Of a stretch of DNA of 64,000 nucleotides, positions 10,453 through 48,441 are shown piece after piece. Under the pieces are notes generated by a model. That model was not told the DNA's origin, did no database searches, and saw only the letters and a program-made list of their open reading frames with translations. Origin of the DNA: Klebsiella phage KP2025; sequence record PP919962.1; one strand, written 5' to 3'. Numbering within the stretch: the first letter of the stretch is position 1; every line of letters begins with the position of its first letter. The translations under genes were made by a program, and so were the position numbers.

Positions 10453-10522
10453 ATTTTCTCCTTGATTTATTTATTTCTCTTGACAAGGGACACTATGAAG
10501 CATCCCTAAGCAAAAGTCAACC

Positions 10523-13076: not shown

Positions 13077-13176
13077 CTCATTTCGTCTTGATGTAATGAA
13101 GTTTACGCTCTTCTCAGATTAAGTCAACAATTATTTTCAAAATAATTAAGCCTCCCGTAGGAGGCTCATGTTCCAA

Positions 13177-38246: not shown

Positions 38247-38276
38247 ATTATAGCCCAGCTTGCGCCAGGCTGTCAA
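38247..38276 (-). promoter_or_regulatory. leftward sigma70-like promoter (TTGACA-18-TATAAT) reading into the non-coding island
   Basis: minus-strand TTGACAGCCTGGCGCAAGCTGGGCTATAAT. Confidence 0.45.
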
Positions 38277-38581: not shown

Positions 38582-38610
38582 TTGACGCGAGGATCACACC
38601 GAGCTATTAT
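38582..38610 (+). promoter_or_regulatory. sigma70-like promoter TTGACG-17-TATTAT
   Basis: upstream of 38663 gene. Confidence 0.5.
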
Positions 38611-38891: not shown

Positions 38892-38950
38892 TTGACAGAT
38901 TCACACAGTAACGTATAATTCACTTCATAGGCAGCGGGAATGGTTCCCGC
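38892..38950 (+). promoter_or_regulatory. early cassette: TTGACA-16-TATAAT promoter plus leader hairpin GCGGGAA-TGG-TTCCCGC
   Basis: hairpin 38934-38950 ends 23 nt before ATG 38974. Confidence 0.55.
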
Positions 38951-39513: not shown

Positions 39514-39542
39514 TTGACGCGCCCAAAGAAAGGGCGCATAAT
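39514..39542 (+). promoter_or_regulatory. promoter TTGACG-[GCGCCC aaagaaa GGGCGC]-CATAAT with palindromic spacer
   Basis: 17-nt spacer is an inverted repeat. Confidence 0.55.
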
Positions 39543-39866: not shown

Positions 39867-39924
39867 TTGACAAGCATCTAAAAGATAATAAACTGTTAAT
39901 CAAAGGGCGGGAATGGTTCCCGCC
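39867..39924 (+). promoter_or_regulatory. early cassette: TTGACA-16-TAAACT promoter plus hairpin GGCGGGAA-TGG-TTCCCGCC
   Basis: near-identical to cassette at 41452. Confidence 0.55.
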
Positions 39925-39944: not shown

Positions 39945-40091
39945 ATGAAACAACGTGTAATGAAAATCCACACCAACACCGGATCAACCGTTGTAACTCC
40001 CTCCCGTTTCGCTATCGCAAGCCGTTGCGCTCGTTTGAAACGTGAGTTAAAATCTAACCAGGGCGCGGGGTTTACCAGATGGGGGAAATAA
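39945..40091 (+). CDS. small basic protein (48 aa) missed by ORF track
   Basis: ATG 21 nt after hairpin; AGAGAGAAAAATT leader. Confidence 0.4.
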   Translation: MKQRVMKIHTNTGSTVVTPSRFAIASRCARLKRELKSNQGAGFTRWGK

Positions 40092-40362: not shown

Positions 40363-40911
40363 ATGGGGCGCGAGCATGTTGTACAATCTTGGGTAAAACA
40401 TGATGAGGATGATTGGCGGGTAATACCGCCCCACCTCCTAGAAACTGCCAGCGGATACAGTGGCGAGCAAGTGGGGCAACGTGTAGCCCGTAACAACGGG
40501 AACACGGCGATTCGCGCCACGATTCCTGGTTGGCTGCCAAATGGCCGCGCCGACATTGCAGGGGCGGCAGATCCAGCGGATGAAGCAAAAGGTGATCCGC
40601 TACTGCTAGTAGATCCAGCGTTTAAGACGCTGTTAGAATACCCTAGCAAGGTGGCGGCACTGGAAGCGGCGTATCGGGCGGGTAAATTGCCGGATAGCTT
40701 ATATCGTAGCGCCTTGCGCGTCTTAGACGTGAAAGCAGATAAGGCACAGCGTAAAATTGATAAGCTGATTGGATCTGTCCTCCTGGAGGAAGAGAACGCG
40801 CCGGAGGAAGAGCCGGAGCTTGACCCGGTAGTCCTGGAAGAGGACGCGATCACGCCGTATCATCCTACGCCGGAAGAGGCAGCGCAAGCCCTGCGAAATT
40901 ATTTCAAATAA
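40363..40911 (+). CDS. hypothetical protein (182 aa, acidic Pro/Glu-rich C-terminus)
   Basis: ORF. Confidence 0.5.
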   Translation: MGREHVVQSWVKHDEDDWRVIPPHLLETASGYSGEQVGQRVARNNGNTAIRATIPGWLPNGRADIAGAADPADEAKGDPLLLVDPAFKTLLEYPSKVAALEAAYRAGKLPDSLYRSALRVLDVKADKAQRKIDKLIGSVLLEEENAPEEEPELDPVVLEEDAITPYHPTPEEAAQALRNYFK

Positions 40912-40915
40912 GGGA

Positions 40916-40976
40916 TTGACAAGCGCCCAAGAGGGGCGCATAATTCATCACATAGGGCGGCAATGATGCCGACACC
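40916..40976 (+). promoter_or_regulatory. early cassette: TTGACA-[GCGCCC aagag GGGCGC]-CATAAT plus GGCGGCA-like leader hairpin
   Basis: palindromic spacer; hairpin 40956-40976. Confidence 0.55.
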
Positions 40977-40990
40977 AAAGAGGATAGATT

Positions 40991-41107
40991 ATGTTAATCA
41001 AGAAAGAAAACTGCTTTTTCACTGGTATTATTAATGCGCTGATCCTTTCGGTTCCATTGTGGGTAGTTATCGGTTTTACTTTGTGGTTAGTATCAAAAGC
41101 AGCGTAA
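40991..41107 (+). CDS. small membrane peptide (38 aa) missed by ORF track
   Basis: hydrophobic helix. Confidence 0.35.
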   Translation: MLIKKENCFFTGIINALILSVPLWVVIGFTLWLVSKAA

Positions 41108-41114
41108 AAACTAG

Positions 41115-41175
41115 TTGACAGGCAGATCCAAAGGGTCTAATATTCATATCAAGGCGGGGAGATAGGCGAACCGCC
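41115..41175 (+). promoter_or_regulatory. early cassette: TTGACA-17-TAATAT plus leader hairpin GGCGG...CCGCC
   Basis: upstream of 41197. Confidence 0.5.
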
Positions 41176-41196
41176 AAAGCTGAAAAGGTTAGCATT

Positions 41197-41424
41197 ATGG
41201 CAAAGTCAAAAGGTTTTAACGGTCACAAAAACTGGAATCATTGGAACGTTTCATTATGGATCAATAATGACGAGGGATTATACCGCCTTGCAATGAATTG
41301 CATTTCATCCACTGACAACCGCGACGAAGCCGCCGCCAAAATGTTGCGCAGCGTGAGCAAGAAAACGCCGGACGGCGCACCGTACAGCAAAACCACGATC
41401 CGCGCTGCGATGGTTGGAATGTAG
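41197..41424 (+). CDS. hypothetical protein (75 aa)
   Basis: ORF. Confidence 0.5.
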   Translation: MAKSKGFNGHKNWNHWNVSLWINNDEGLYRLAMNCISSTDNRDEAAAKMLRSVSKKTPDGAPYSKTTIRAAMVGM

Positions 41425-41451
41425 AAAAATCGTCAATCTTATAAAATAAGG

Positions 41452-41507
41452 TTGACAACCTTCTAAAATAAAGTAAACTGTTAATCAAGGCGGGAATAGT
41501 TCCCGCC
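41452..41507 (+). promoter_or_regulatory. early cassette: TTGACA-16-TAAACT plus hairpin GGCGGGAA-TAG-TTCCCGCC
   Basis: paralog of 39867 cassette. Confidence 0.55.
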
Positions 41508-41526
41508 ACAACAAAGAGAGAAAATT

Positions 41527-41688
41527 ATGATTGCCATGAATACTCGCGAAGCCGCTCGCAACGTAGCCCGTAAAGTTAACGCCGTTGCACCTGCTAAATT
41601 GAAAGCACCAGTGAAAGGCGAAAACGGCTGGATCTTCCCTGGCTTGTCTCATGCTGACGGAAAAGGCACCTTGAGCCTGAAAAAATAA
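41527..41688 (+). CDS. small basic protein (53 aa) missed by ORF track
   Basis: ATG 20 nt after hairpin. Confidence 0.4.
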   Translation: MIAMNTREAARNVARKVNAVAPAKLKAPVKGENGWIFPGLSHADGKGTLSLKK

Positions 41689-41689
41689 G

Positions 41690-41726
41690 TTGACTTTTCG
41701 TTATGCCGTGCTATCCTGTACGGCAT
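41690..41726 (+). promoter_or_regulatory. promoter TAAGTTGACTTTTCG...TATCCT with -10 inside palindrome ATGCCGT-N10-ACGGCAT
   Basis: first of three paralogous promoters (41690, 42034, 42290). Confidence 0.5.
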
Positions 41727-41782
41727 AGAGAAAAAGAAACATCCGGCAATAATGCCAAAATCATCAATAAAGGAGATAAACA

Positions 41783-42027
41783 TGACTACTACTAACCTGC
41801 TGAAAACCCCGCGTATCGGTGATTCTGTATTCATTGGTTTTGCCACTAATGGGGACGGCAAAATGGTTAAAGGTGGCGCTGAAATTCCGTTCGATAAGGT
41901 GGCGGCAATCTACGCCGAAACTTCCACCACTAAGGACGGCAAAATCATGCATCATGTACGCACAGCAAGCGGCGACGCCGTTGCAGTGATCGGTTGTTCA
42001 AAAAACTACTGGCACGCTGTTAAATAA
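41783..42027 (+). CDS. hypothetical protein (81 aa)
   Basis: AAGGAG RBS. Confidence 0.5.
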
Positions 42028-42033
42028 ATATCG

Positions 42034-42070
42034 TTGACTTTTCGTTATAGCGTCCTATAATGGGCGCTAT
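42034..42070 (+). promoter_or_regulatory. promoter TTGACT-16-TATAAT with -10 inside palindrome TATAGCG...CGCTATA
   Basis: paralog of 41690. Confidence 0.5.
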
Positions 42071-42108
42071 AGAGAAGAGAAACTAGCCCAACAAAAGAGA
42101 GTAAGAAA

Positions 42109-42282
42109 ATGGAAATTATCGCAGAACTTAGAATAAAAGGTATCGATCCGGTCATTATGACTTATGAGGATCTGCAATATACCGTAACATATGGTGAACA
42201 ATCTGAAACTTACGATTATTACGATGAAGCGGAGCAGGCTTTTAACGCGTTTGCCGAGATTGCCCTAGATGAATATCGTTAA
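42109..42282 (+). CDS. small acidic protein (57 aa) missed by ORF track
   Basis: ORF. Confidence 0.4.
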   Translation: MEIIAELRIKGIDPVIMTYEDLQYTVTYGEQSETYDYYDEAEQAFNAFAEIALDEYR

Positions 42283-42289
42283 AAATAAG

Positions 42290-42326
42290 TTGACTTTCTG
42301 TGATGCCCCTTTATAATAAGGGGCAT
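42290..42326 (+). promoter_or_regulatory. promoter TTGACT-16-TATAAT with -10 in loop of ATGCCCCTT-TATAAT-AAGGGGCAT
   Basis: perfect 9-bp arms flank the -10 hexamer. Confidence 0.55.
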
Positions 42327-42362
42327 TGAAGAGAGAAGACCAACAATCTAACGAGGTGTAAA

Positions 42363-42584
42363 ATGGTTACATTTGCAATTATTTCCCTGGTGGCTGGCAA
42401 CGTGTTTATCAATGATACTTTCGCGGCGGATGATAGCAAGCCAGGAGAAATCAGCACAGCTTATGCAGATTGTAAAGCCGCTGAACGTATGTTATCGCCT
42501 TGCCTGCTGATGAGTGAACGCGAGGACGGGAAAATCGTATTCACCAACGTTGAAACCTGGTATCAATTGGTAGTTGCAAAATAA
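42363..42584 (+). CDS. secreted or membrane small protein (73 aa)
   Basis: N-terminal hydrophobic segment. Confidence 0.5.
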   Translation: MVTFAIISLVAGNVFINDTFAADDSKPGEISTAYADCKAAERMLSPCLLMSEREDGKIVFTNVETWYQLVVAK

Positions 42585-42632
42585 ATTTCATCTGATAGAA
42601 TACTGACATCACTTAAGTAAAAGGGAAATAAT

Positions 42633-42860
42633 ATGAAACGCAAAATCACTATTTCTTATGAGTGGACGCAAGCAGATGGTAGTGAAGTACTGGATCACCA
42701 CAAAGAGTACTTGGAAGAGTCAGCCGATGAGCGTATCCGGGAACAGATTGGAGCAGGTTGTATTAAGGGGCAATTGCTCGACAACATCCACACGCAGGAA
42801 GATCCCGACGACCACGAAGGGACAGAGTATAAAGGTTGGTGGACTTTAATTATCGAGTAA
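42633..42860 (+). CDS. hypothetical protein (75 aa)
   Basis: ORF. Confidence 0.5.
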   Translation: MKRKITISYEWTQADGSEVLDHHKEYLEESADERIREQIGAGCIKGQLLDNIHTQEDPDDHEGTEYKGWWTLIIE

Positions 42861-42947
42861 AATTAGTGGCAAAATAAATTTAGTACTTTATAATACTTAC
42901 CTACAGACAGATAGTCTGTTCTTATTTGACTACAACAGAGTAATGAA

Positions 42948-43100
42948 ATGAATCCTAATCATAAAATGATGATGGAAGCAAGCCGTTTTATCAATAAAAC
43001 AGAAAAAAGAAAATGTTTTGTTTTATGTCTCATAACGCTTGCAATTGGTTTAGCTTGTGTTATTATTACTTACGCTGATTTATCAAATACCACTAAATAA
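42948..43100 (+). CDS. small membrane peptide (50 aa) missed by ORF track
   Basis: ORF. Confidence 0.35.
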   Translation: MNPNHKMMMEASRFINKTEKRKCFVLCLITLAIGLACVIITYADLSNTTK

Positions 43101-43111
43101 GAGATAAGATT

Positions 43112-43468
43112 ATGAATAACATCCTGATCGAGAAACGCGCCGAACTGCTGGAAGTTAAACAGGCTATCTATGCAAAACAGAGGGAGATCCGCAACTTCTC
43201 TTATGAGTCAACTGATGATGAGTATGATTCTTATTTGGATGGATGCTATGGCGATCTTGACGTTTGCGGCAGCACTTTCAGCGCGTCCTATGCTCTTAAA
43301 AACCTTGACCCTACGGCGTACCGTTGCGGCAAGTCAGATTATGACAGCGAAAAAGATCTTGACGATGTGCCGGAGTATGTTACACTCACGGAAGAGCTGG
43401 AAGAGCTGGAAGAGCTGGAAAGCGATCTTGAAAGTGAGATTGAAGAGCTGGAAGAGAGCGAAGAATAA
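43112..43468 (+). CDS. highly acidic protein with LEELEE repeats (118 aa)
   Basis: C-terminus TEELEELEELESDLESEIEELEESEE. Confidence 0.55.
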   Translation: MNNILIEKRAELLEVKQAIYAKQREIRNFSYESTDDEYDSYLDGCYGDLDVCGSTFSASYALKNLDPTAYRCGKSDYDSEKDLDDVPEYVTLTEELEELEELESDLESEIEELEESEE

Positions 43469-43481
43469 TTTTAAAAACAGG

Positions 43482-43537
43482 TTGACACGGTAGACGGTTT
43501 AAAGTAGATTAGTATTCAAGGGGGAGCGGTTCCCCCC
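43482..43537 (+). promoter_or_regulatory. early cassette: TTGACA-17-TAGATT plus hairpin GGGGGA-GCGGT-TCCCCC
   Basis: upstream of 43561. Confidence 0.5.
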
Positions 43538-43932: not shown

Positions 43933-43961
43933 GATTGAATCTGGCATAAGATACACAATAA

Positions 43962-43979
43962 GAGCGGCAGCAATGCCGC
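43962..43979 (+). promoter_or_regulatory. leader hairpin AGCGGCA-GCAA-TGCCGCT (GNRA tetraloop family)
   Basis: upstream of small gene 44009. Confidence 0.5.
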
Positions 43980-44008
43980 TAACATTAAAATAAAACGAGG
44001 GTTTAAAA

Positions 44009-46083: not shown

Positions 46084-46143
46084 TTGACAGCGCCCAATAA
46101 AGGGCGCATAATTCATTACATAAGGCGGGGAGTGGTTCCCCGC
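46084..46143 (+). promoter_or_regulatory. early cassette: TTGACA-[GCGCCC aataaa GGGCGC]-CATAAT plus hairpin GCGGGGA-N5-TCCCCGC
   Basis: palindromic spacer promoter class. Confidence 0.55.
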
Positions 46144-46161
46144 TAAATGAGAGATTTAATT

Positions 46162-46388: not shown

Positions 46389-46418
46389 TTGACAACGCGC
46401 CCGGTAAGGGCGCATAAT
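46389..46418 (+). promoter_or_regulatory. promoter TTGACA-[ACGCGCCC ggtaa GGGCGC]-ATAAT with palindromic spacer
   Basis: upstream of 46448. Confidence 0.5.
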
Positions 46419-46691: not shown

Positions 46692-46725
46692 CGCCCCGGG
46701 GCTTGATCTCCCTGGGGCGTTTTGC
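46692..46725 (+). terminator. rho-independent terminator CGCCCCGG...CCTGGGGCG + TTTTGCTAT
   Basis: GC stem plus T run. Confidence 0.55.
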
Positions 46726-47088: not shown

Positions 47089-47106
47089 GGCGGCAGCAAT
47101 GCCGCC
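47089..47106 (+). promoter_or_regulatory. leader hairpin GGCGGCA-GCAA-TGCCGCC (GNRA tetraloop)
   Basis: perfect 7-bp stem. Confidence 0.55.
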
Positions 47107-48362: not shown

Positions 48363-48419
48363 TTGCAACGCTGATCGCCGTTTGCTATAGTTACTTTGAA
48401 GGGCGGGAACTTCTCCCGC
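48363..48419 (+). promoter_or_regulatory. early cassette: TTGCAA-17-TATAGT plus hairpin GCGGGA-ACTTC-TCCCGC
   Basis: upstream of 48442. Confidence 0.55.
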
Positions 48420-48441
48420 TCAATCCTCAAAGGGTAAGAAA

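What the first reader, a model, noticed from the sequence alone, without database searches (positions are those of the whole stretch)
41690..42326. Three tandem paralogous promoters whose -10 hexamer sits in the loop of a perfect palindrome
These read TAAGTTGACTTTTCG-TT-ATGCCGTGC-TATCCT-GTACGGCAT (41690), ...TATAGCGTCC-TATAAT-GGGCGCTATA (42034) and ...GATGCCCCTT-TATAAT-AAGGGGCAT (42290). A -10 element embedded between 7-9 bp inverted repeats is unusual. It suggests either regulator binding that occludes the -10, or a cruciform/hairpin that doubles as terminator of the upstream gene. Each begins right at the stop codon TAAG of the preceding gene.
Basis: seen in the sequence. Interest (0 to 1): 0.6.

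Follow-up and report, generated by a model that had tools for sequence, protein, structure and literature searches.

The report
Promoter-hairpin cassettes flanking phage early genes
Three neighbouring early promoters of a phAPEC8-like phage each sit inside a conserved 17-20 bp hairpin with the -10 box as its loop; this repeats the "PeSL" promoter/stem-loop cassettes already described in T4-like phages, so it is real but not a new principle.

Summary
At 41690, 42034 and 42290 a TTGACT-16-TATAAT-type promoter has its -10 hexamer as the 6-nt loop of an inverted repeat. These are the only three such sites in the window, against 0.06 expected from shuffles.

The repeat is longer than reported: 17 pairs from the end of the -35 box to about +12. 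In 17 distinct copies from related Stephanstirmvirinae phages, 96.5% of pair cells are paired. Ten of 17 pairs show changes on both sides. Non-Watson-Crick pairs are mostly G.U on the coding strand (40 against 4 A.C).

Selection therefore acts on base pairing, most likely in RNA read through from the upstream promoter, not on an operator sequence. No U-tract follows, so it is not a canonical terminator.

The conserved flanks of the cassettes coincide with gene deletions, insertions and replacements between related phages.

This matches the PeSL (promoter-early stem-loop) cassettes of T4-like phages, where a stem-loop overlapping the -10 box is a described subclass. Here they occur in an unrelated phage lineage with no sequence similarity.

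Verdict: new member of a known kind, moderate interest. What the hairpin does to the RNA (processing, stabilisation or attenuation) is inferred, not shown.

The parts
41527..41688 (+). Upstream small early ORF (53 aa, phrog_13689, unknown function). Its stop TAA at 41686-41688 abuts cassette 1.
   Evidence: Homologue of phAPEC8_00266.
41689..41740 (+). Cassette 1 hairpin. The inverted repeat encloses the whole promoter. Inner helix 41701-41711 / 41718-41728, outer helix 41695-41699 / 41730-41734, basal GUU/AAC 41689-41691 / 41738-41740.
   Evidence: RNA fold -24.1 kcal/mol, z -5.8. Covariation.
41690..41717 (+). Cassette 1 sigma-70-type promoter: TTGACT, 16-nt spacer, TATCCT with an extended -10 TG at 41709-41710. 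The -10 (41712-41717) is the hairpin loop. The predicted start is about 41723-41725, inside the 3' arm.
   Evidence: The start site is inferred from the usual 6-8 nt distance.
41782..42027 (+). Small early ORF (81 aa from the ATG with a Shine-Dalgarno sequence; DUF7177). It is one of two cassette-borne genes absent from phAPEC8 and FBKp34 at this position.
42033..42083 (+). Cassette 2 hairpin. Inner helix 42045-42055 / 42062-42072, outer helix 42038-42043 / 42074-42079, basal helix 42033-42035 / 42081-42083.
   Evidence: RNA fold -26.3 kcal/mol, z -5.8. The cassette is 86-96% identical in 67 phage records.
42034..42061 (+). Cassette 2 promoter: TTGACT, 16-nt spacer, TATAAT. The -10 (42056-42061) is the hairpin loop.
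   Evidence: (11 of 12 matches)
42109..42282 (+). Small early ORF (57 aa, phrog_9374, unknown function). In KP13-26 an unrelated ORF replaces it between the same two cassettes. It is absent in phi1_175008.
42289..42340 (+). Cassette 3 hairpin. Inner helix 42302-42311 / 42318-42327, outer helix 42294-42299 / 42330-42335, basal helix 42289-42291 / 42338-42340.
   Evidence: RNA fold -26.8 kcal/mol, z -7.7. 18-nt arms found (I1).
42290..42317 (+). Cassette 3 promoter: TTGACT, 16-nt spacer, TATAAT. The -10 (42312-42317) is the hairpin loop.
   Evidence: (11 of 12 matches)
42363..42584 (+). Downstream small early ORF (73 aa, phrog_25390). It is a homologue of phAPEC8_00267, which in phAPEC8 follows a single cassette.
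10471..10520 (-). Distant fourth member of the same cassette family on the opposite strand, in another block of small genes. TTGACT, then a hairpin whose loop and 3' side hold CATAGT.
   Evidence: covariance model hit of 29.2 bits, E 4e-5. RNA fold -18.1 kcal/mol, z -3.3.

Best explanation
Each of the three sites is a self-contained early-gene expression cassette of the PeSL type (promoter-early stem-loop). It has four parts:
- an AT-rich stretch carrying the stop codon(s) of the upstream ORF;
- a near-consensus host sigma-70 promoter (TTGACT, 16-nt spacer, TATAAT);
- a 43-52-nt inverted repeat running from the end of the -35 box to about +12, with the -10 hexamer as its loop;
- a purine-rich leader with a Shine-Dalgarno sequence.

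The promoter drives the small ORF downstream. The inverted repeat works as an RNA hairpin, and only in transcripts that enter from the promoter upstream. RNA started at the cassette's own promoter begins within the last bases of the 3' arm, so it lacks the 5' arm.

In read-through RNA the 17-20 bp hairpin marks the boundary between two mini-genes. The most likely role is a processing and stability signal: a two-turn duplex of the kind RNase III cuts, leaving a 3' hairpin that blocks exonucleases. Attenuation of read-through is a less likely role.

Separately, the two conserved flanks act as short homologies. These are TAAGTTGACTTTYYGTKAT on the 5' side and ATWGARGAGAGAAAC on the 3' side. Recombination between them deletes, inserts and swaps the ORFan genes they flank.

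Shown here: the promoter consensus, the hairpin, selection on pairing, conservation of the -10 in the loop, and indel junctions inside the cassettes. Inferred: promoter activity, the start site, that the folded molecule is RNA, and what the hairpin does to that RNA.
For: Non-random occurrence: 3 sites observed against 0.06 expected.

Selection on pairing: in 17 distinct cassettes from the window and 9 related phage genomes or contigs, 96.5% of cells pair. Ten of 17 pairs change on both sides. The covariation score is 0.637 against 0.207 for shuffles (0 of 500 reach it), and at most 0.217 when partners are slid. The outer helix is also kept by double changes: C-G to U-A, U-A to C-G, and G-C in Citrobacter phage Tr1.

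Selection on the promoter at the same time: all 17 loops keep a hexamer with A at position 2 and T at position 6, at the proper distance from an invariant TTGAC.

Strand and molecule: 40 G.U cells against 4 A.C. The + strand RNA folds at -24.1, -26.3 and -26.8 kcal/mol (z -5.8 to -7.7). The complement folds at -15.7, -14.4 and -21.1.

Genomic context: the window is a Stephanstirmvirinae phage (94% identity to Klebsiella phage KP13-26). The region is a run of small ORFs of unknown function, nearly all with their own promoter and a hairpin.

Shuffling:
- FBKp34 lacks 41708-42280, with the junction inside a cassette (site 1 x site 3).
- phi1_175008 lacks 42042-42277 (site 2 x site 3).
- KP13-16 and an IMG/VR contig lack 41705-42033 (site 1 x site 2).
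- KP13-26 has a different gene between cassettes 2 and 3.
- phAPEC8 has one cassette where the window has three cassettes and two extra genes.
The site-2 cassette is joined to at least 5 different downstream genes and at least 4 different upstream genes.

Precedent: Arbiol et al. [quoted passage not shown] Those stem-loops act as terminators or attenuators in a reporter, and the cassettes recombine to shuffle ORFans. My scan of phage phi1 finds such -10-in-loop PeSLs, for example GGGGAT-atagCATAAT-ATCCCC.
Against: No transcript data exist for this phage subfamily in the searchable literature. Promoter use, start site and any RNA end at the hairpin are therefore unverified.

The hairpin has no U-tract, so the terminator function claimed for T4-type PeSLs cannot simply be transferred.

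The G.U over A.C bias rests on few independent events: 9 against 3 distinct column/type combinations. Part of it is shared ancestry. One G.T at site 1 may be forced by the extended -10 TG.

G.T is also tolerated in single-stranded DNA hairpins, so a + strand DNA hairpin is not excluded.

The alignment includes paralogues and orthologues that share descent, so the shuffle control overstates significance. The slid-partner control does not have that problem.

Three positions per arm are invariant (A14, T15, C18 and their partners), which leaves some room for a protein contact.

No covariance model hit in T4-like phage phi1, so the likeness to PeSLs is one of architecture, not of descent.
Confidence: 0.7

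Rival explanations
1. Operator model. The palindrome is the binding site of a dimeric phage or host regulator. The regulator sits on the -10 box and switches the three early promoters off (or on) together.
For: Inverted repeats centred on a promoter element are the classic operator layout. The three sites are centred exactly on the -10. Positions A14, T15, C18 and their partners G33, A36, T37 are invariant in 17 copies.
Against: Most arm positions vary, and they vary in a compensatory way: 10 of 17 pairs change on both sides, and the inner arms ATGCCGTGC, TATAGCGTCC, ATGGCTGT and ATGACCTGT share little. A regulator reads sequence, not complementarity. The G.T mismatches break dyad symmetry in duplex DNA. 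The 17-pair length is far more than an operator needs. No DNA-binding protein was recognised among the neighbouring ORFs tested.
Confidence: 0.06
2. DNA cruciform model. Negative supercoiling extrudes the palindrome, and this either exposes the -10 as single-stranded DNA or destroys the -35/-10 geometry. The promoters would then be sensors of DNA topology after injection.
For: The centre of the repeat is the AT-rich TATAAT, which favours extrusion. The arms are long (17 pairs). A precedent for hairpin promoters exists in phage N4 early promoters (from my own knowledge; not tested here).
Against: A cruciform needs both strands to fold. The complement carries A.C mismatches wherever the + strand has G.T (40 against 4 cells) and folds 6-12 kcal/mol worse under RNA parameters. 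Extrusion would swallow the last bases of the -35 box and the start site, so RNA polymerase could not contact -35 and -10 together. The promoters are ordinary sigma-70 consensus sites, not N4-type 3-nt-loop hairpins.
Confidence: 0.07
3. Intrinsic terminator model. The hairpin is a rho-independent terminator of the upstream gene that happens to overlap the next promoter, as annotated in the GenBank record of phage ASO2A.
For: The orthologous palindrome in Escherichia phage vB_EcoM_ASO2A is annotated 'rho-independent terminator predicted by WebGeSTer'. The stem-loop of one T4-type PeSL lowered downstream lacZ as much as rrnB T1 (PMC2839356). The position directly after a stop codon fits.
Against: The defining U-tract is absent. 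The 3' flank is AGAGAAAAAG, AGAGAAGAG or TGAAGAGAG, whose RNA:DNA hybrid should be stable. The terminator scan did not call any of the three, while it did call a true terminator at 46692-46719 followed by TTTT. A 17-20 bp helix is much longer than terminators need. The ASO2A annotation is software output without experiment (PMC10612097).
Confidence: 0.12
4. Passive by-product model. The inverted repeat has no function of its own. It only persists because the cassette is copied as a unit by recombination.
For: The cassettes are paralogues spread by recombination. Copies would therefore inherit any palindrome present in the founder.
Against: Inheritance cannot explain compensatory double substitutions at 10 of 17 pairs. 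Nor can it explain retention of pairing in the most diverged copies (Tr1 12329, 7198 and 8592; window 10471-10520).
Confidence: 0.03

Closest known systems
PeSL (promoter-early stem-loop) cassettes of T4-like phages RB49/phi1, PST/T4 and nt-1/KVP40 (Arbiol et al. 2010, PMC2839356; Comeau et al. 2014, PMC4122927)
   Same: Shared layout: AT-rich stop-codon region, near-consensus sigma-70 early promoter, stable stem-loop, Shine-Dalgarno sequence and start codon, in about 100 bp of intergenic DNA. Both are repeated many times in a region of small ORFans. A stem-loop overlapping the -10 box is one of the common described positions, and I saw it in phi1. Both lie at the junctions of insertions, deletions and replacements between close relatives.
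   Different: The host lineage is different (Stephanstirmvirinae, not Straboviridae). There is no sequence similarity: the covariance model finds nothing in phi1. The helix here is much longer: 17-20 pairs from -35 to +12 with an exact 6-nt loop, against 5-8 pairs of G-run/C-run with a 6-10-nt loop. It is followed by a purine tract rather than anything U-rich. Terminator activity and mini-circle formation, shown for RB49/phi1, are untested here.
RNase III processing hairpins between the early genes of phage T7 (R0.3, R0.5, R1, R1.1, R1.3). From my own knowledge; not tested here.
   Same: An intergenic hairpin of about two helical turns with an internal mismatch lies between small early genes transcribed by host RNA polymerase. 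It would leave the upstream mRNA with a protective 3' hairpin.
   Different: T7 sites do not enclose a promoter. No cleavage data exist here. No Rfam family matched the region. The similarity is of size and position only.
Rho-independent (intrinsic) terminators, and overlapping promoter/terminator pairs. A bioRxiv preprint, 'Widespread coupling of promoters and terminators of transcription in bacteria' (10.64898/2026.08.19.745784), appeared in searches but could not be opened.
   Same: A G+C-containing hairpin lies directly after a stop codon, next to the following gene's promoter. The ASO2A record annotates it as a terminator.
   Different: There is no U-tract, and the helix is longer than usual. 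I know the content of the preprint only from its title and the first lines of its abstract.
Hairpin early promoters of phage N4 used by the virion RNA polymerase. From my own knowledge; not tested here.
   Same: The promoter function is associated with an inverted repeat.
   Different: N4 promoters are 5-7 bp stems with a 3-nt loop, read by a phage polymerase on extruded DNA. Here the elements are plain sigma-70 consensus hexamers at a 16-nt spacing.

Membership tests
PeSL (promoter-early stem-loop) cassette | Near-consensus sigma-70-type early promoter in the intergenic region | tested here: met
   TTGACT, 16-nt spacer, then TATAAT (11 of 12 matches) at 42034 and 42290. TTGACT, 16-nt spacer, then TATCCT with an extended -10 TG at 41690.
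PeSL (promoter-early stem-loop) cassette | Stable stem-loop within or next to the promoter, in one of five described positions including overlap with the -10 box | tested here: met
   The -10 is the loop. Folds are -24 to -27 kcal/mol, z -5.8 to -7.7. Definition taken from PMC2839356.
PeSL (promoter-early stem-loop) cassette | [quoted passage not shown] | tested here: met
   AAAAAATAAG, AAATAAATATCG and TAAAAATAAG precede the -35 boxes. AAAGGAGATAAACATG, AAGAGAGTAAGAAAATG and AACGAGGTGTAAAATG lie downstream.
PeSL (promoter-early stem-loop) cassette | Many copies in a hyperplastic region rich in small genes of unknown function | tested here: met
   About 20 promoter-plus-hairpin units lie between 38.5 and 48 kb. 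The covariance model gives 31 strong + strand hits in related loci. The neighbouring ORFs are DUF or unknown-function phrogs.
PeSL (promoter-early stem-loop) cassette | Cassettes lie at the junctions of insertions, deletions and replacements between closely related phages | tested here: met
   Five different rearrangements have junctions inside the cassettes. One cassette type is joined to at least 5 different downstream genes.
PeSL (promoter-early stem-loop) cassette | The stem-loop terminates or attenuates transcription coming from upstream (shown by lacZ reporter in RB49/phi1) | not testable with these tools
   This needs a reporter or a 3'-end map. The sequence argues against canonical termination because there is no U-tract.
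PeSL (promoter-early stem-loop) cassette | Recombination between cassettes yields circular ORFan mini-circles | not testable with these tools
   This needs inverse PCR on infected cells or virion DNA.
PeSL (promoter-early stem-loop) cassette | Occurs in T4-like phages, with sequence relatedness to the RB49/phi1, PST or nt-1 motifs | tested here: not met
   The host phage is Stephanstirmvirinae. The covariance model has no hit in 22 kb of the phi1 PeSL region. The claim is therefore 'same kind of element', not 'same family by descent'.
Rho-independent terminator | G+C-rich hairpin | tested here: met
   4-5 G-C pairs lie in the inner helix.
Rho-independent terminator | U-rich tract directly after the hairpin | tested here: not met
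   The tails are AGAGAAAAAG, AGAGAAGAG and TGAAGAGAG. The terminator scan does not call them.
RNase III processing site | Double-stranded RNA helix of about two turns (roughly 20 bp), often with an internal mismatch | tested here: inconclusive
   There are 17 pairs with one conserved GxA mismatch, plus a 3-bp basal helix. Length alone does not prove a substrate.
RNase III processing site | Cleavage that depends on RNase III (rnc) | not testable with these tools
   This needs RNA end mapping in a wild-type host against an rnc mutant host.
Operator for a dimeric DNA-binding regulator | Half-site sequence conserved among sites controlled by the same protein | tested here: not met
   Only 3 of 17 positions per arm are invariant, and the rest covary.

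The most novel reading that the evidence does not exclude
The hairpin is a purpose-built two-turn dsRNA processing signal wrapped around a promoter. RNase III (or another duplex-specific nuclease) would cut read-through RNA in the 3' arm, close to where the promoter's own transcript starts. Processed and primary mRNAs of each ORFan would then have nearly the same 5' end, and every upstream mRNA would end in a protective hairpin. That would be a promoter and an RNA-processing site encoded in the same 50 nucleotides. The length of the helix, rather than termination, would be the selected trait. This has not been described for PeSLs.
Probability: 0.2. Interest if true: 0.6.

Novelty: new member of a known kind. 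Interest (0 to 1): 0.35.

Why it matters
It extends the PeSL idea beyond T4-like phages. In that idea, small promoter-plus-hairpin cassettes both express accessory ORFan genes and move them around. The extension is to an unrelated group of large Klebsiella/Escherichia myophages that are candidates for phage therapy.

It also supplies something the original PeSL papers did not report in the text I read: covariation evidence that the pairing itself is under selection, while the -10 hexamer is kept in the loop.

In practice it corrects existing genome annotations. The same element is called a 'terminator' in ASO2A and goes unannotated in most other records.

It also gives a compact natural part, a strong promoter insulated from upstream transcription, that could be tested for synthetic biology.

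It does not open a new principle. A specialist who knows the PeSL papers would recognise it.

Tried and rejected
1. An exact 15-mer scan of IMG/VR with TTGACTTTTCGTTAT gave 120 loci, almost all chance matches. Only L068 and L069 were true cassettes. This was a poor use of a scan.

2. The first MAFFT alignment (A1) contained a wrongly specified L069 range and was discarded. A2 replaces it.

3. An Rfam search of 38-48.5 kb at E up to 1 found nothing at the sites. The only hit was a sub-threshold sRNA match at 43939-43981.

4. Pfam and PHROGs searches of the flanking ORFs looked for a candidate regulator or nuclease and returned only families of unknown function.

5. A literature search for transcriptomes of Stephanstirmvirinae or Phapecoctavirus found none. 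The rV5 and ASO2A papers only list predicted promoters and terminators.

6. A possibly relevant bioRxiv preprint on promoter-terminator coupling could not be opened.

7. I considered and rejected the canonical terminator (no U-tract), the operator (arms covary), the N4-type hairpin promoter (plain sigma-70 hexamers, 6-nt loop) and chance (shuffles).

8. I did not use the protein homology, structure prediction or metagenome tools, because the question concerns non-coding DNA.
Full report
WHAT IS THERE

The window is part of a large myophage of the subfamily Stephanstirmvirinae. Positions 40900-43200 are 94% identical to Klebsiella phages KP13-26 and FKP3, and partly similar to phi1_175008, FBKp34, 05F01 and the phAPEC8 group.

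Between about 38.5 and 48 kb the + strand carries a run of small ORFs. Most are preceded by a TTGAC(A/T/G), N16-18, TAnnnT promoter-like site.

- 41690: TTGACT, 16-nt spacer, TATCCT, with an extended -10 TG.
- 42034: TTGACT, 16-nt spacer, TATAAT.
- 42290: TTGACT, 16-nt spacer, TATAAT.

In each, the -10 hexamer is the 6-nt loop of an inverted repeat.

IS IT MORE THAN CHANCE?

I counted hairpins with at least 9 pairs (at most one G.T) around a -10-like hexamer. There are 3 in the 64-kb window, all at these sites. The mean in 200 dinucleotide-preserving shuffles is 0.06 and the maximum is 1.

CORRECTIONS TO THE OBSERVATION

Only site 3 is a perfect palindrome. Sites 1 and 2 each carry one G.T.

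The repeat is much longer than 7-9 bp:
- The inner helix has 11 pairs.
- A conserved GxA mismatch follows.
- Then comes a 6-pair outer helix that pairs the pyrimidine-rich spacer (CTTTTC or CTTTCT) with the purine-rich start of the leader (GAGAAG or AGAGAG).
- Then comes a short GUU/AAC helix.

The whole structure spans 41689-41740, 42033-42083 and 42289-42340. That runs from the -35 box to about +15.

The statement that each site begins at the stop codon 'TAAG' holds only for site 1. Site 2 has six bases between the stop and the -35. At site 3 the TAA of 'TAAG' is a second in-frame stop.

IS THE PAIRING SELECTED?

I collected the same kind of cassette from the early regions of these relatives:
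- FBKp34
- KP13-26
- ASO2A
- phAPEC8
- Citrobacter phage Tr1
- ZCKP1
- WPEC4
- 05F01
- KP13-16
- phi1_175008
- two IMG/VR contigs

Seventeen distinct 52-nt copies align without trouble (A2). Results on the 17-pair structure:
- 96.5% of cells form a standard pair.
- 10 of 17 pairs show a change on both sides.
- The covariation score is 0.637, against 0.207 in column shuffles (0 of 500 reach it).
- The score is at most 0.217 when the 3' partners are slid by 1-3 columns.

Examples of compensating arms:
- Site 1, ATGCCGTGC/GTACGGCAT, becomes ATGCCCTGT/ATAGGGCAT in FBKp34 and ATGACCTGT/ACAGGTCAT in 05F01.
- Site 3, ATGCCCCTT/AAGGGGCAT, becomes ATGCCTCTT/AAGAGGCAT in FBKp34 and ATGGCTGT/ACAGCCAT in KP13-26.

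The outer helix also compensates. C-G changes to U-A and U-A to C-G between the site-1/2 type and the site-3 type, and Tr1 has G-C.

At the same time every loop keeps a hexamer with A at position 2 and T at position 6, at the right distance from an invariant TTGAC. Two constraints are therefore superimposed: a promoter and a helix.

WHICH MOLECULE FOLDS?

Non-Watson-Crick pairs are mostly G.U as read on the + strand: 40 cells against 4 A.C, or 9 against 3 distinct column/type combinations.

The + strand RNA folds at -24.1, -26.3 and -26.8 kcal/mol (z -5.8, -5.8 and -7.7). The complementary RNA reaches only -15.7, -14.4 and -21.1 kcal/mol.

This points to a single-stranded + strand molecule, most simply RNA. 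The evidence is suggestive rather than conclusive, because few independent events underlie the bias and G.T is also tolerated in DNA hairpins.

A transcript started at the cassette's own promoter should begin 6-8 nt after the -10. That is within the last bases of the 3' arm, so it cannot form the hairpin. This step is an inference from the usual promoter geometry. Only RNA arriving from the promoter upstream contains both arms.

WHAT THE HAIRPIN IS NOT

It is not a canonical intrinsic terminator. The 3' flank is a purine tract (AGAGAAAAAG, AGAGAAGAG or TGAAGAGAG). The terminator scan does not call these sites, although it does call a normal terminator with a T-run at 46692-46719. The 'terminator' annotation of the orthologous site in the ASO2A record is unverified WebGeSTer output.

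It is not an operator in the usual sense. Only three positions per arm are invariant and the rest covary.

A two-strand cruciform is disfavoured by the strand asymmetry. Extrusion would also remove part of the -35 box and the start site from the duplex.

No Rfam family matches.

GENOMIC ROLE

The cassettes coincide with the breakpoints of gene-content differences between close relatives:
- FBKp34 lacks 41708-42280. That is two genes and one cassette, with the junction in the shared TAAGTTGACTTT, so site 1 is fused to site 3.
- phi1_175008 lacks 42042-42277 (site 2 fused to site 3).
- KP13-16 and contig L068 lack 41705-42033 (site 1 fused to site 2).
- KP13-26 carries an unrelated ORF in place of 42084-42281, exactly between cassettes 2 and 3. 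It also has an extra ORF in front of cassette 1.
- phAPEC8, ASO2A, ZCKP1 and WPEC4 have a single site-2-type cassette between the homologues of ORF 41527-41688 and ORF 42363-42584. The window has three cassettes and two additional ORFs there.

Across the loci, the site-2 cassette is joined to at least five different downstream genes and at least four different upstream genes. The site-1 and site-3 types behave likewise.

The site-2 cassette is 86-96% identical in 67 phage records, although the flanking genes are often not alignable.

The ORFs involved have no known function: DUF7177, DUF7249 and unknown-function phrogs.

COMPARISON WITH WHAT IS KNOWN

This is the architecture and behaviour described as PeSLs (promoter-early stem-loops) in T4-like phages. 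PeSLs have these properties (PMC2839356; PMC4122927):
- They are composite motifs about 100 bp long.
- They contain an AT-rich stop-codon region, a strong sigma-70-like promoter, a stem-loop and a Shine-Dalgarno sequence.
- One tested stem-loop lowered downstream reporter expression like a strong terminator.
- The motifs recombine to shuffle ORFans and form mini-circles.

I scanned 22 kb of phage phi1 and found both PeSL types. The spacer type looks like GGGGATC...GATCCCC. The -10-in-loop type looks like GGGGAT-atagCATAAT-ATCCCC and GGGTGT-atatCATAAT-ACACCC.

The window also contains the other PeSL-like subclasses:
- Spacer hairpins (GCGCCC, N5-7, GGGCGC) at 39514, 40916, 46084 and 46389.
- A palindrome across the -35 box at 41439-41471.
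- Hairpins just downstream of the start site after most other early promoters.

The differences from published PeSLs are:
- The phage lineage is different.
- There is no sequence relatedness. The covariance model built from A2 finds 31 strong + strand hits in Stephanstirmvirinae loci and none in phi1.
- The helix is much longer (17-20 pairs).
- The tail is purine-rich.

I found no paper in the searchable library that describes such cassettes in this subfamily.

MECHANISM I COMMIT TO

The cassette is an insulated expression unit. Host RNA polymerase starts at the sigma-70 promoter and makes a leader that begins with the purine tract. Polymerases coming from the previous cassette transcribe both arms, and the RNA folds into a two-turn hairpin at the gene boundary.

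There is no U-tract and the helix has the length of an RNase III substrate. I therefore consider processing and 3'-end stabilisation of the upstream mRNA more likely than termination. Attenuation remains possible. This step is inference.

The conserved flanks serve as short homologies for recombination that adds, removes and exchanges ORFan cassettes. That step is supported by five observed rearrangements.

My overall confidence in this picture is 0.7. My confidence in the specific RNase III reading is about 0.2.

VERDICT

The element is a new member of a known kind, namely PeSL-type cassettes in a second, unrelated phage group. Interest is 0.35.

Noticed in passing
window 38934-38950, 39906-39924, 41489-41507, 43520-43536, 46124-46144, 47089-47106, 48401-48421 (+): A second hairpin family (GGCGGGAA-nnn-TTCCCGCC and variants, -10 to -14 kcal/mol) lies about 10-20 nt downstream of the -10 of most other early promoters. 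It therefore sits at the 5' end of their own transcripts. The orthologous sites are annotated as PHIRE 'promoters' in phAPEC8 and as WebGeSTer 'terminators' in ASO2A. Neither annotation fits: the PHIRE motif lies downstream of a clear sigma-70 promoter, and no U-tract follows.
   Followed up: partly
window 39514-39542, 40916-40944, 46084-46112, 46389-46418 (+): These promoters have a G+C-rich hairpin (GCGCCC, N5-7, GGGCGC) that fills the spacer and abuts a CATAAT -10. This matches the spacer subclass of PeSLs. Site 41115 has a weaker version, AGATCC-aaa-GGGTCT.
   Followed up: partly
window 41439-41471 (+): A 16-nt-arm inverted repeat (TTATAAAATAAGGTTG / CAACCTTCTAAAATAA, 75% complementary) is centred on the -35 box of the promoter at 41452. 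This matches the '-35 overlap' subclass.
   Followed up: no
window 10471-10520 (-): A diverged member of the same -10-in-hairpin cassette family lies on the opposite strand, in another block of small genes (promoter-like sites also at 13127, 12803 and 6845 on the - strand). Covariance model 29.2 bits; fold -18.1 kcal/mol.
   Followed up: partly
window 41742-41759 (-): Read on the - strand, a 7-pair hairpin (TTTGGCATTATTGCCGGA) is followed by TGTTTCTTTTTCTCT, the complement of the purine leader of cassette 1. This gives a terminator-like site for antisense transcription. Only cassette 1 has it.
   Followed up: no
window 46692-46719 (+): This is the one textbook intrinsic terminator in the early region: 10-pair stem, 9 G-C pairs, -20.8 kcal/mol, followed by TTTT. 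It serves as an internal contrast to the U-less hairpins.
   Followed up: no
window 38247-38276 (-) and 38582-38610 / 38892-38919 (+): Perfect-consensus promoters face in opposite directions: TTGACA-18-TATAAT on the - strand, and TTGACA-16-TATAAT on the + strand at 38892. They mark the left border of the + strand early block and suggest a divergent early control region.
   Followed up: no
window 43385-43420 within ORF 43112-43468 (+): A tandem GAAGAGCTG repeat encodes an acidic EELEELEELE stretch in a 118-aa ORF. The homologous ORFs in KP13-26 and Tr1 vary in this repeat.
   Followed up: no
L008 (Klebsiella phage 05F01) 11480 compared with window 39945-40091: In 05F01 a site-3-type cassette drives a homologue (MKQYVMKIHT...) of window ORF 39945-40091. 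In the window that ORF sits behind a different promoter type (39867, TTGACA with a downstream hairpin). The same gene can therefore be served by different cassette classes.
   Followed up: no
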